A DNA stretch of 64,000 bases from Promethearchaeota archaeon (GTDB lineage: Archaea > Asgardarchaeota > Lokiarchaeia > Sigyniarchaeales > SOKP01), in the NCBI GenBank assembly GCA_016839555.1, contig JAEOUA010000010.1, positions 96,001 through 160,000 on the forward strand. Reading direction: 5' to 3'. Numbering within the stretch: position 1 is the stretch's first letter; every line of letters begins with the position of its first letter. Positions 41,742-45,472 of this stretch are shown here, piece after piece. The notes under the pieces are model-generated. The model made no database searches. It had not been told where the DNA came from and saw only the letters and a list, made by a program, of their open reading frames with translations. The translations under genes and the position numbers were made by a program.

Positions 41742-42986
41742 TTAATAGTTAAATTGCTTTAATCGATCAACTGTAGTATACAATCGTTTGCCTCCTCTGC
41801 GGAGATAATCCATTGCCTCTTCTATTCCCTCAATAGTCAAATTATACATAGGGATAAGGCTGGAAATTATCCTTCTGGTCCAAGGTTGCCATTCGAATCT
41901 AATAAGTTCTGGATTAAGCCAGACGGTATTATTCTTAAAATGATCTTTAATTTCTCTTAAATAATAGATGCCCGGCATTTCATTTCGATGATAATAGTAT
42001 ATTGATCCATATCGTTCGGTAAGTTCCCATGAGGCCATGGCAGCATCGCCAACTATTACAATTTTGTAATTCTTATCGTATTTTTTAAGAAATTCATCAA
42101 AATCGATGGCTTCTTCGGGATTTCTCTGAGCATTTTCATAAAGAGTTTCATAAATACAATTATGAAAATAGTAATATTTAAATTTCTTCCAATGGGACAT
42201 GTTATTGGCTGCAGAAAAGAGCTTATTTACTAAATGAGCATATGGCGTCATCGAGCCACCCACATCCATTAATAAAAGCAGCTTTACATTATTTTTTCTT
42301 CGCTTTTCAAATACAATTTCAATATCTCCCCCGTTTTTTGCAGTTTTATCAATGGTTTTATCAATATTAAGCTCATCTAACTTACCGATTTCTTCCAATT
42401 TTCGTAGCCGCTTAAGAGCTACTTTAATTTGTCTCGTATCTAATACAATATCCTTGCGATAATCTCGAAATATCCTTTTTTGGGCAATTTGTACTGCCAT
42501 GCGCATTCCTGAGCCCCCACCTAGTCTCATTCCCATCGGATTGCGTCCTGAATGCCCGAATTGGGCTTCACCTCCAGTACCTATCCATTGATTCCCAAAA
42601 TTATGCTCTTCATCTTGTTTTTGCATTAGCTCCTCAAAATGTTGTTGAAGTTCTTCTATGTTAAAATTCATTTGCAAAAATTCTTGTAGTTCTTTTCGAT
42701 ATTGTGGATCAATTTCATCTAAATCTAATGGCTTTTCTAACCAATCCCAGATTTGTTGCTTAATATCATCCGGAAATTTTAATTGGGCATCCTTAAAAAA
42801 ATTCGCAAATGCTATATCATATACATCAAATTGATGCTCATTTTTGCAGAAAATCGAACGAGAAATATAATAAAATTGTATCATATTGCTAATTAAACCT
42901 TTATCGAGCGCTTCCATTAGGGTCATGTATTCTATAAGGCTTACAGGTAAGCGCTCTTTAAGGTAGTAAAAGAATTCAACAAACAA
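41742..42986 (-). CDS. VWA-domain CoxE-like partner of MoxR AAA+ ATPase
   Basis: WIGTGG, LLMDVGGSMTPY (MIDAS-like), YFHNC, VGDAAM, WLNP; directly downstream of the AAA gene. Confidence 0.9.
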   Translation of the reverse strand: MFVEFFYYLKERLPVSLIEYMTLMEALDKGLISNMIQFYYISRSIFCKNEHQFDVYDIAFANFFKDAQLKFPDDIKQQIWDWLEKPLDLDEIDPQYRKELQEFLQMNFNIEELQQHFEELMQKQDEEHNFGNQWIGTGGEAQFGHSGRNPMGMRLGGGSGMRMAVQIAQKRIFRDYRKDIVLDTRQIKVALKRLRKLEEIGKLDELNIDKTIDKTAKNGGDIEIVFEKRRKNNVKLLLLMDVGGSMTPYAHLVNKLFSAANNMSHWKKFKYYYFHNCIYETLYENAQRNPEEAIDFDEFLKKYDKNYKIVIVGDAAMASWELTERYGSIYYYHRNEMPGIYYLREIKDHFKNNTVWLNPELIRFEWQPWTRRIISSLIPMYNLTIEGIEEAMDYLRRGGKRLYTTVDRLKQFNY

Positions 42987-43064: not shown

Positions 43065-44008
43065 TTATGTTGGAAATTTGAGCTTATCCAAGGCAACCTC
43101 TAAGTCTTTTTCCTTTTTTATTAGGGTGCCTAAAAATGGAAAGCTATTCTTAAATTTCTCTATTGAGATGCCGCTTTTGAGCAATACTCCAATCCAATCT
43201 AATAATTCTGAAGTGGAGGGCATTTTACGTAGATTTGTAATTGCTCTTAGTTGGTAAAATTTCTTAATACATTCATTTAAAAGGTTATCTTTCAAATTAG
43301 GATAATGGATCTTACAGATCTCCCTCATGAACTCTTTATCTGGAAATTCAATGTAATGAAAAACACATCTTCTTAAAAACGCATCGGGTAATTCCTTCTC
43401 ATTATTGGATGTAATTATAACAATAGGTCGATGTTTAGCTTTGAAAAATTCATCTGTTTCCTTTATATAAAATTCCATTACGTCTAATTCCTGAAGCAAA
43501 TCGTTCGGAAATTCTATTTTCCGTAGAATATAGTCAGTTATATTCTATATCGGCTTTATCGATTTCATCGATAAGAAGAACGACTTGCTCCTCAGATACA
43601 AATGCTTGTCCTAACGGTCCGAGCTCGATATAATCATGGATGTTATTTACATCCCTCTCCTCGCTACCAAACCTACTATCGTTTGATCTCCAAGTTATAA
43701 TTTAACTTTGAATTAATCTCTTAATAGTATCATATTGGTAGCAGCCAAAAATTGCTTCACTGGTCGATTTAATGTTCCATATTATCAATCTTTTACCTAT
43801 GGCTTCTGCTATTGCATGTGCAAGGAGAGTTTTTCCCGTTCTGGTAGAAATTAACATATTAAAATCTATTTCCAGGCTCTCCTTTTACGAGCAATGGTCG
43901 AGCTAAGGCTATTGACACATTTACTATGTTTTGTAGCTGCGGATCTGCGATATATTTTATGTTTGCGGTATTTACATTTCCTTCGAATTGATTAAAGGTT
44001 TGACTCAT
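43065..44008 (-). CDS. MoxR/CoxD-type AAA+ ATPase, 4 exons (44008-43870, 43838-43713, 43682-43549, 43517-43065), 283 aa after splicing
   Basis: Exon lengths 139+126+134+453 = 852 nt = 283 aa + stop: MSQTFNQFEG...RPLLVKGEPG^TGKTLLAHAIAEA...YQYDTIKRL^NDSRFG...VVLLIDEIDKAD^IEFPNDLLQELD...IITSNNEKELPDAFLRRC... The ORF track calls only most of exon 4. Confidence 0.9.
43518..43548 (-). other. Putative BHB intron 3 (31 nt) just after Walker B
   Basis: ATAGAATATAACTGACTATATTCTACGGAAA; helix GCCG/CGGA (one G.A), bulges AU^A and AA^A, perfect 9-bp stem UAGAAUAUA/UAUAUUCUA. Confidence 0.85.
43683..43712 (-). other. Putative BHB/BHL intron 2 (30 nt, in-frame TAA)
   Basis: TTCAAAGTTAAATTATAACTTGGAGATCAA; helix GAUU/GAUC, bulges AA^U and AA^A, intron stem UCAAAGUUA/UAACUUGGA, exon stem UACUAUU/GAUAGUA. 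Confidence 0.85.
43839..43869 (-). other. Putative BHB intron 1 (31 nt) inside Walker A
   Basis: ATAGATTTTAATATGTTAATTTCTACCAGAA; helix CUGG/CCAG, bulges AA^A and AA^C, intron stem UAGA/UCUA, exon stem AAGGAGAG/CUCUCCUU. Confidence 0.88.
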
Positions 44009-44368: not shown

Positions 44369-45472
44369 TTAAGTTGATAGTCCACCATCGTTTATAGTCC
44401 ACTTTTTAGTAGTCTCAAGGTAATTATGGGCATGTTGAGCATCGCTGCTATATTGTACACTGCCTACCCCAAGAGTGACACTTTCTTGCAATGTTGTTAA
44501 ATTTGACCATCCAATGAGCAAGCTATCATAATTCTCAGGTGTTAATGCACTATAGTTGAACATTGCGGTCATATCTGTGACGCTTGACACATTCCAGCTA
44601 CTAATATCCTGGTTAAAAACACCAGCACCAAAGAACATATAGCTCATATCCTCAACTTTTGACACGTTCCAGCTACTAATATCCTGGTTAAAATCATAAG
44701 CACTACCAAACATGCTACTCATGGTTGTCACACTCGATACGTCCCAATTCCCAATATCTTGATTGAACGTATTAGCACCTGTAAACATGCTACTCATGGT
44801 TGTCACACTCGATACGTCCCAATTCCCAATATCTTGATTGAACTTATTAGCATAAAAGAACATAAAGTTCATATCTTCGACATTCGAGACATCCCAGCTA
44901 TTCATGCTTGGTACGGTATCAAGAGTAGAGCAATGCCGAAACGCAAAAGATAAATCAGTTGTTCCTGTTAAATCCAAAATGTCCGTTGCTGTAATATTAA
45001 GATTAGAGCACCCATAAAAGTAGCCACCTGAATTTCCTAATCGTAAAGAACCCCATTGCTTAATTTCAAGCAGTTTATCTTTATCTCCTCCGTAATGAAA
45101 TCTCCAGCCAATAATTTTTCCAGTGATACTAATGGTATATACACCTTCTGAAGCATATGTGTGATTTACTTCAGATTGGTTCCACTTCATGATCGTGGCA
45201 TTAGTCCCATCACCCCAGTAAACAGTAAAATTATATTCTCCAAATTCTTCCAAAGGTAATTGCACTTCATCGGGATTAGTTGTCCCAGATTTTGAAGTAT
45301 TCCATACTGAGATAAATGCGTTTTCTGGTACTTGATCCCCTCCGGGAGGTAATAAGAATAAATTGCCTTCCTCTGCTTCTCGCGGCCAGAAAGCGATTGA
45401 TAACCCAATAGCTACTCCACCCACTATTAACACAGCGATAATTACCACTGCAAGTGTTTTTTTACTAATCAT
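44369..45472 (-). CDS. Membrane-anchored BspA/DUF285 repeat surface protein with PKD-like domain
   Basis: N-terminal TM; YNFTVYWGDG...HTYASEGVYTISITG; 25-aa repeats FNQDIGNWDVSSVTTMSSMF. Confidence 0.9.
   Translation of the reverse strand: MISKKTLAVVIIAVLIVGGVAIGLSIAFWPREAEEGNLFLLPPGGDQVPENAFISVWNTSKSGTTNPDEVQLPLEEFGEYNFTVYWGDGTNATIMKWNQSEVNHTYASEGVYTISITGKIIGWRFHYGGDKDKLLEIKQWGSLRLGNSGGYFYGCSNLNITATDILDLTGTTDLSFAFRHCSTLDTVPSMNSWDVSNVEDMNFMFFYANKFNQDIGNWDVSSVTTMSSMFTGANTFNQDIGNWDVSSVTTMSSMFGSAYDFNQDISSWNVSKVEDMSYMFFGAGVFNQDISSWNVSSVTDMTAMFNYSALTPENYDSLLIGWSNLTTLQESVTLGVGSVQYSSDAQHAHNYLETTKKWTINDGGLST
44560..44930 (-). repeat. 75-nt-period intragenic repeats (DUF285 units; boundaries approximate)
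   Basis: 61-nt identical blocks at 44708-44768 and 44783-44843; 27-nt identical blocks starting at 44592 and 44667. Confidence 0.85.

What the first reader, a model, noticed from the sequence alone, without database searches (positions are those of the whole stretch)
43518..43869. Introns 1 and 3 look related, and all three sit in conserved ATPase motifs
Seen: introns 1 and 3 are both 31 nt and match at 19/31 positions ungapped (shared ATAGA...TAA...TTCTAC...AA). The bases that pair with the exon differ to match each host site (CCAG vs CGGA). All three introns end in AA and carry an in-frame stop. Inference: a small intron family spreading between sites, possibly from tRNA introns by reverse splicing, and persisting in conserved motifs where imprecise loss is lethal, as inteins do. 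AT-richness inflates the identity.
Basis: partly seen in the sequence, partly recalled or inferred. Interest (0 to 1): 0.72.

Follow-up and report, generated by a model that had tools for sequence, protein, structure and literature searches.

The report
Three tRNA-type mini-introns in one gene
A single ATPase gene of an uncultured Asgard (Promethearchaeum-like) archaeon is broken by three 30-31-base hairpins shaped like tRNA introns. They very probably have to be cut out of the mRNA, but the likeness between two of them is no greater than between such introns in unlinked genes, so copying between sites is not shown.

Summary
A MoxR-like AAA+ ATPase gene (minus strand, 44008-43065) carries inserts of 31, 30 and 31 nt. 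Each ends in AA and holds an in-frame stop. Inserts 1 and 3 match at 19/31 positions.

Removing them restores GEPG|TGKT (Walker A), QRL|NDSRFG and DEIDKAD|IEFPND (just after Walker B), exactly as in about 95 uninterrupted orthologues.

All three fold as a relaxed bulge-helix-bulge (HBh') motif. Cutting after the second base of each bulge gives the conserved protein. The genome has two EndA paralogues and RtcB.

Congeners carry none, only intron 2 (with four compensatory double changes) or only intron 3, while dN is about 0.1 and dS is saturated. These are therefore real, maintained introns. Splicing itself is inferred, because no RNA data exist.

The "related family" reading is weak:
- The I1-I3 score (0.61) is the top of 36 pairs among nine mRNA mini-introns I resolved in this genome.
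- Unlinked pairs reach 0.57-0.58.
- A structure-aware shuffle gives P = 0.012.
- No further copies exist in 121 related genomes.
- tRNA introns are not similar.

New here: the intron 3 site also holds an unrelated 32-nt intron in another genus. The exon bases that pair with the intron are GC-rich, which offers another reason for the motif locations.

This scan had already found such introns in other genes of this genome.

The parts
43065..44008 (-). Host gene: MoxR-like AAA+ ATPase, 4 exons, spliced CDS 852 nt (283 aa)
   Evidence: An intact orthologue hits Pfam AAA (50.5 bits) and AAA_5 (45.4 bits); NCBIfam MadB-like lies below its cut-off. 17 orthologues were aligned.
43870..44008 (-). Exon 1 (ends ...GEPG)
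   Evidence: Frame and orthologue alignment.
43839..43869 (-). Intron 1, 31 nt, inside Walker A. Exon CTGG pairs with intron CCAG; bulges AAA and AAC; inner helix 4 bp + 2x2 loop + 4 bp; in-frame TAA
   Evidence: Absent from all 100 other family orthologues. The MFE fold gives helix-bulge-helix. A 340-nt contig of another study covers it with 13 differences and no gap.
43713..43838 (-). Exon 2 (TGKT...QRL); holds three G000-only substitutions at otherwise invariant residues
43683..43712 (-). Intron 2, 30 nt. Exon GATT pairs with intron GATC; bulges AAT and AAA; 8-bp inner helix with one mismatch; in-frame TAA
   Evidence: Present at the same site in congener G002. Five of 8 stem pairs are changed there, four of them on both sides, and the 7-nt loop is invariant.
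43549..43682 (-). Exon 3 (NDSRFG...LLIDEIDKAD, Walker B)
43518..43548 (-). Intron 3, 31 nt. Exon GCCG pairs with intron CGGA (3 bp + G.A); bulges ATA and AAA; 9-bp inner helix; in-frame TGA; its first 7 nt repeat the first 7 nt of exon 4
   Evidence: Same site in congener G004, 28/31 identical, while the exons are 74% identical. Three genomes of another genus carry an unrelated 32-nt insert at the same bond. One metagenome contig skips exactly 31 nt here.
43065..43517 (-). Exon 4 (IEFPND... to the stop codon)
41742..42986 (-). Downstream partner gene, VWA_CoxE-like (context only)
   Evidence: Pfam PF05762, 34.7 bits.

Best explanation
The gene is a functional MoxR-like AAA+ ATPase gene interrupted by three separate archaeal bulge-helix-bulge introns of the relaxed HBh' form.

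Anatomy, the same in each:
- The last 4 exon bases before a 3-base bulge pair with 4 intron bases near the intron's 3' end.
- An intron hairpin stacks on this helix.
- A second A-rich 3-base stretch follows.

Inferred mechanism: the tRNA-splicing endonuclease cuts after the second base of each bulge. Here it is a two-paralogue, alpha/beta-type EndA. RtcB joins the exons and restores the Walker A, QRL-NDSRFG and post-Walker B sequences. Unspliced mRNA would end at the stop codon inside each intron.

Likeness of introns 1 and 3: it is best read as the common architecture and AT-rich make-up of this genome's mRNA mini-introns (28-32 nt, A first, AA last, hairpin of about 9 bp). It is not proof that one was copied from the other.

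Why conserved motifs: the placement is real. It most likely reflects two things. The exon must supply a stable, GC-rich tetramer for the central helix. Selection then keeps only introns that can be removed exactly.

Shown: anatomy, exact restoration, presence/absence among relatives, covariation, the enzymes. Inferred: cleavage and ligation in vivo.
For: Exact restoration: removal of 31/30/31 nt restores the sequence of uninterrupted orthologues base for base.

Presence and absence: congeners G001 (none), G002 (I2 only) and G004 (I3 only) together with G000 show all four I2/I3 combinations. That pattern needs a precise loss, a repeated gain or recombination.

Covariation: I2 in G000 versus G002 has four double compensatory changes and an unchanged loop.

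Selection: I3 is 90% identical between G000 and G004, where the exons are 74% identical. dN is about 0.10-0.14 and dS is saturated.

Folding and geometry: MFE folds reproduce the helix, the 3-nt bulge and the hairpin for I1-I3 and their orthologues. The geometry is the same as in the canonical 37/38 intron of this genome's tRNA-Thr(GGU).

Enzymes: two EndA genes, one keeping and one lacking the catalytic His, and an intact RtcB. A preprint reports the alpha-beta EndA architecture in 44 of 60 Asgard genomes (10.64898/2026.10.13.758758).

Class features: taken from nine resolved introns in porB, dnaG, top6B, rnhB, argG, HDAC and this gene.

Similarity ranking. GC-rich exon tetramer.
Against: No RNA evidence: splicing has not been observed.

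The 3' bulge is not closed by an outer helix (at most 1 bp), so the motif is the relaxed form only.

G000 has three unique substitutions at otherwise invariant residues, all in exon 2 (L>I, D>F, Q>K). This could hint at relaxed constraint.

I1-I3 is still the single highest-scoring pair, lies in one gene, and beats structure-aware shuffles at P = 0.012. Common descent is therefore not excluded.

The nine-intron set is small. Part of it was found because motifs were broken, which may inflate both the motif bias and the GC bias.
Confidence: 0.72

Rival explanations
1. Intron 1 is a copy of intron 3, or both derive from one source element. The copy moved within the same gene, for example by reverse splicing into the pre-mRNA followed by reverse transcription and recombination, and its exon-pairing tetramer was then re-fitted to the new site.
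For: 19/31 identity (19/27 outside the exon-pairing tetramer). It is the top of 36 intron pairs. P = 0.012 in structure-aware shuffles. Both lie in one gene. I1 is the youngest of the three, being found only in G000 and a strain about 96% identical.
Against: Unlinked introns reach 0.57-0.58. There are no further copies in 121 family genomes. The exon contexts are unlike. At least 3 of 4 pairing bases would have to change through unspliceable intermediates. I3 changed only 3/31 since G000 and G004 split, whereas I1 differs from I3 at 12/31. The Asgard tRNA-intron census found almost no copied families.
Confidence: 0.17
2. The gene is a decaying pseudogene in this genome, and the inserts are small palindromic insertions that are never removed.
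For: Three inserts in one gene. Three unique substitutions at invariant residues in exon 2.
Against: There are no other frameshifts or stops. dN is no higher than between intron-free congeners. Every insert has the exact geometry that restores the frame. I2 and I3 persist in other species with compensatory changes and otherwise intact genes.
Confidence: 0.04
3. The inserts stay in the mRNA and ribosomes hop over them, as in translational bypassing in T4 gene 60 or yeast mitochondrial byps.
For: Each has a hairpin and a stop soon after the take-off point. For I3, a 7-nt repeat gives identical take-off and landing codons.
Against: I1 and I2 lack matching take-off and landing codons (GGA/AGA, TTA/TCA). 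The BHB cut rule explains all nine introns in the genome, and the tRNA-splicing enzymes are present.
Confidence: 0.03

Closest known systems
BHB intron in the cbf5 pre-mRNA of Crenarchaeota (Watanabe 2002; Yokobori 2009, PMC2738675)
   Same: A short intron inside a protein-coding sequence. It has a relaxed cleavage motif and lives in a host with a hetero-oligomeric splicing endonuclease. It was gained and lost among related lineages.
   Different: Different gene and phylum (Asgard). There are three introns in one gene instead of one. The size is a uniform 30-31 nt, with presence/absence among congeners. Splicing of cbf5 was shown experimentally; here it is inferred.
Transposed tRNA-intron families of Thermoproteales (Fujishima 2010, as cited in 10.64898/2026.10.13.758758)
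   Same: The idea that BHB introns recur at new sites with the exon-pairing part adapted to each site.
   Different: Those families share at least 70-80% identity across many genes. Here there is one pair at 61% and no other copies. [quoted passage not shown]
[quoted passage not shown]
   Same: Same lineages, same enzyme architecture, repeated gains at sites that can form the splicing motif, and an unknown route of arrival.
   Different: That work concerns tRNA genes only and does not mention mRNA.
Inteins in conserved motifs of ATPases
   Same: An intervening element placed in the most conserved motif of the host protein.
   Different: Inteins are removed at the protein level and encode their own chemistry. 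These inserts are 30-nt RNA hairpins that depend on host enzymes.

Membership tests
Archaeal bulge-helix-bulge (BHB) introns | Central 4-bp helix flanked by 3-nt bulges that carry the splice sites | tested here: met
   CTGG/CCAG (4 bp), GATT/GATC (4 bp including G.U), GCCG/CGGA (3 bp). A 3-nt 5' bulge appears in the MFE folds, followed by an A-rich 3-nt 3' stretch.
Archaeal bulge-helix-bulge (BHB) introns | Outer helix h closing the 3' bulge (strict hBHBh' form) | tested here: not met
   At most 1 bp is possible outside the motif for all three. The form is therefore the relaxed HBh', as in many crenarchaeal non-canonical introns.
Archaeal bulge-helix-bulge (BHB) introns | Cutting after the 2nd base of each bulge yields the functional product | tested here: met
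   It gives exactly the sequence of uninterrupted orthologues at all three sites. The same rule fits the canonical tRNA-Thr intron of this genome. The rule itself is taken from established knowledge.
Archaeal bulge-helix-bulge (BHB) introns | Structure maintained by compensatory change | tested here: met
   I2 in G000 versus G002 shows four double changes that keep the pairs. I3 is too conserved to tell.
Archaeal bulge-helix-bulge (BHB) introns | Host has a broad-specificity endonuclease and an RtcB ligase | tested here: met
   Two PF01974 genes (104 and 73 bits), one of them without the catalytic His, and RtcB at 564 bits.
Archaeal bulge-helix-bulge (BHB) introns | Excision and exon ligation seen in RNA | not testable with these tools
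   No RNA run is listed that holds this DNA.
Mobile or transposed BHB-intron family | Related copies (about 70-80% identity or more) at several unrelated sites | tested here: not met
   One pair at 61%. No other copies in the genome or in 121 relatives.
Translational bypass elements | Identical take-off and landing codons flanking the gap | tested here: not met
   Met only for I3 (GAA/GAA). I1 is GGA/AGA and I2 is TTA/TCA.
MoxR-like AAA+ ATPases (host protein) | AAA/AAA_5 domain with Walker A and B, and a VWA partner gene | tested here: met
   Pfam AAA and AAA_5 above their cut-offs in an intact orthologue, with a VWA_CoxE neighbour. The MadB equivalog cut-off is not reached.

The most novel reading that the evidence does not exclude
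This one gene records ongoing gain of tRNA-type introns in the mRNAs of eukaryotes' closest prokaryotic relatives. Two events would be involved. First, an intragenic copy event (intron 3 giving rise to intron 1). Second, independent arrival of unrelated introns at the very same bond in two genera. Together these would imply a site-directed insertion process, such as reverse splicing at exon sites that can complete a BHB motif.
Probability: 0.17. Interest if true: 0.85.

Novelty: new member of a known kind. Interest (0 to 1): 0.66.

Why it matters
In the papers I could search, introns cut by the tRNA-splicing enzymes inside archaeal coding sequences are documented for one gene only, cbf5. No paper in the searched library mentions them in Asgard mRNAs.

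This gene has three such introns. Their presence varies among species of one genus, and one site is occupied by unrelated sequences in two genera. That makes it a compact natural experiment on how such introns are gained, kept and lost in the lineage closest to eukaryotes.

It also gives a testable rule for where they can live: an exon tetramer strong enough to build the central helix.

Tried and rejected
Genome-wide structure scan: a de novo scan for BHB structure plus ORF fusion was dominated by noise. The correct cut register showed no excess over registers shifted by 1-2 nt, so it gave no census.

Screen for introns shared with G026: fused-peptide blast. It found no credible shared intron and recovered only porB. 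Strict structure criteria miss I1, dnaG and top6B.

Coverage limit: only 2.8 of 4.36 Mb of G026 could be fetched, so the census is partial.

RNA evidence: no RNA holder is listed for this stretch.

Spliced forms in DNA collections: exact searches for the spliced I1 and I3 junctions in metagenome contigs found nothing.

Gene tree: the single-gene tree of the genus is unresolved, and a first tree that included flanks was distorted by non-homologous flanks. Gains and losses therefore could not be polarised.

I1-core matches in relatives: 22 hits at up to 3 mismatches, which equals the reversed-pattern control, and none has exon pairing or an ORF context.

G066: its short open frame is a contig end, not an intron.

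Full report
**What is there**

The finding lies in a gene on the minus strand, 44008-43065. Its pieces read MSQTF...GEPG, TGKT...QRL, NDSRFG...DEIDKAD and IEFPND...FPT. An intact orthologue hits Pfam AAA and AAA_5, and the next gene is VWA_CoxE-like. The host is therefore a MoxR-like AAA+ ATPase with a VWA partner.

The genome is 3.74 Mb with 30% GC. The best named relative of the gene is a Promethearchaeum MAG, followed by bacterial homologues. aragorn finds only 28 tRNA genes, most of them with introns. This fits the heavy tRNA interruption reported for Asgard archaea (10.64898/2026.10.13.758758).

**The observation**

I1 (43869-43839) and I3 (43548-43518) are both 31 nt, and I2 (43712-43683) is 30 nt. 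I1 and I3 match at 19/31 positions. All three end in AA and contain an in-frame stop. The intron tetramers CCAG and CGGA pair with the exon ends CTGG and GCCG.

**Are they introns?**

I searched 31, and later 135, related genomes with exon 4. Of the 101 genomes that have the gene, nearly all read straight through GEPGTGKT, QRLNDSRFG and DEIDKADIEFPND. A DNA alignment shows gaps of exactly 31, 30 and 31 nt at these points.

Within the genus:
- G001 has no insert.
- G002 has I2 only.
- G004 has I3 only.
- G000 has all three.

All four combinations of I2 and I3 therefore exist. Without needing any tree, this requires a precise loss, a repeated gain or recombination.

Further evidence that the inserts are maintained:
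- I2 differs between G000 and G002 at 9 of 30 positions. All nine lie in the stem, and four pairs changed on both sides and still pair. The 7-nt loop is unchanged.
- I3 is 28/31 identical between G000 and G004, although the exons are only 74% identical. dS is saturated and dN is about 0.10-0.14.
- A metagenome contig of a relative skips exactly the 31 nt of I3. A contig from another study carries I1 in a strain about 96% identical.

A pseudogene does not fit these facts.

**Anatomy and likely mechanism**

Each insert has the same layout. Four exon bases are followed by a 3-base bulge and then an intron hairpin. Next come four intron bases that pair with the exon tetramer, and finally an A-rich 3-base stretch.

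Cutting after the second base of each bulge gives the conserved product in every case. The same geometry fits the canonical 37/38 intron of tRNA-Thr(GGU) in this genome, which is 30 nt with a 9-bp hairpin. MFE folding finds the helix-bulge-helix unaided.

No outer helix closes the 3' bulge, so this is the relaxed HBh' form. That form is handled by hetero-oligomeric endonucleases (PMC2738675; PMC5829648 abstract).

The genome has two EndA paralogues. One keeps the Tyr/His/Lys positions and the other lacks the His; the roles of these residues are from my own knowledge. It also has an intact RtcB. Cleavage and ligation in vivo are inferred, because no RNA data could be found.

**Are I1 and I3 related?**

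I built a comparison set for this question. A tblastn census used ORFs from 2.8 Mb of a complete genome of the same order. It found three G000 genes split by about 30 nt: porB, dnaG and top6B. Pfam searches of the genome located split rnhB, argG and a deacetylase (HDAC) gene. Earlier notes of this scan named these genes, and I resolved each junction myself.

All nine introns share these features:
- They are 28-32 nt long.
- They obey the same cut rule.
- They carry an in-frame stop.
- They begin with A in 7 of 9 cases.
- They end with AA in 8 of 9 cases.

The shared A...AA of I1 and I3 is therefore a property of the class.

Similarity results:

| Comparison | NW score |
|---|---|
| I1-I3 (top of 36 pairs) | 0.613 |
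| I3-HDAC | 0.581 |
| argG-HDAC | 0.567 |
| porB-HDAC | 0.548 |
| Best mRNA-tRNA intron pair | 0.50 |

Shuffles give P = 4e-4 for composition alone. When the pairs, the termini and the exon-pairing bases are kept, P = 0.012.

Searches for further copies:
- The I3 hairpin occurs only at the same site in G004 among 121 family genomes.
- I1-like matches equal the control count, and none has a BHB context.

A move between the two sites would also need at least 3 of the 4 pairing bases to change. I therefore rate common descent of I1 and I3 at about one in six. It is not excluded, but it is not shown.

**The motif positions**

The three sites rank at the 98.5th, 94.9th and 85.7th percentile of local conservation. 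The other six introns also sit in well-known motifs, for example DEAGR|G, SGGL|DTS and H.G|DG. Some of them, however, were noticed precisely because a motif was broken.

A second explanation emerges from the anatomy. The exon tetramers that build the central helix are GC-rich, 22 of 36 bases against 32% in coding DNA (P = 5e-4). In an AT-rich genome such tetramers are mostly Gly, Pro and Ala codons, which are typical of conserved loops. Both ideas can be tested by a motif-blind census.

**New points**

- In three genomes of another genus (G054, G124, G128) the very bond occupied by I3 holds a 32-nt intron. It has the same architecture, but its hairpin is no more similar to I3 than background (0.44-0.53). 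This means either an old intron whose stem has turned over completely, with many precise losses, or recurrent gain at one site.
- The first 7 nt of I3 repeat the first 7 nt of exon 4. None of the other eight introns shows such a repeat.
- G000 has three unique substitutions at invariant residues, all in the 42-codon exon 2 between I1 and I2.

**Comparison with what is known**

The closest published case is the cbf5 intron of Crenarchaeota (PMC2738675). Searches for Asgard, BHB and mRNA found no paper on such introns in Asgard coding genes. The recent Asgard tRNA-intron preprint does not mention mRNA. It reports almost no copied intron families, which agrees with the result here.

This scan had already reported single mini-introns in other genes of this genome. 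This report adds a gene with three introns, variation within the genus, covariation, a site occupied in two genera, and a negative test of the "family" idea.

**Verdict**

The introns are real and very probably spliced by the tRNA machinery. The specific kinship of I1 and I3, and an origin from tRNA introns, are not supported beyond class resemblance.

Noticed in passing
L276, L278, L279 (genomes G054, G124, G128), at the DKAD|IEFPND codons: A 32-nt BHB-type insert sits at exactly the bond occupied by intron 3, but its 9-bp hairpin has an unrelated sequence. 41 other genomes of that genus that have the gene lack it.
   Followed up: partly
window 43542-43548 and 43511-43517 (minus strand): The first 7 nt of intron 3 (ATAGAAT) are repeated as the first 7 nt of exon 4. 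This could mark a local duplication origin or allow an alternative pairing. None of the eight other introns shows such a repeat.
   Followed up: partly
window 43713-43838 (exon 2): Three substitutions unique to this genome at residues invariant in 17 orthologues (L>I, D>F, Q>K) all fall in the short exon between introns 1 and 2.
   Followed up: no
genome contigs C6:79407, C7:129736, C5 (top6B, minus strand), C12:69953, C12 (argG, minus strand), C10 (HDAC, minus strand): Six further mRNA mini-introns of 28-32 nt (porB, dnaG, top6B, rnhB, argG, a deacetylase) share the same cut geometry, A-rich bulges and an in-frame stop.
   Followed up: partly
window 44369-45472 (minus strand): The neighbouring ORF of 367 aa has an N-terminal hydrophobic segment and about five repeats of a ...FNQDI..W(D/N)VS.V..M..MF unit (BspA/DUF285-like by eye).
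   Followed up: no
one search hit list: Outside Asgard, the closest relatives of this ATPase are bacterial (Chloroflexia, Myxococcota, Planctomycetia; 56-63% identity). This suggests the ATPase-VWA pair may have been exchanged between domains.
   Followed up: no
whole genome: aragorn finds only 28 tRNA genes, 17 of them with introns. Many tRNA genes are probably hidden by multiple or non-canonical introns.
   Followed up: no
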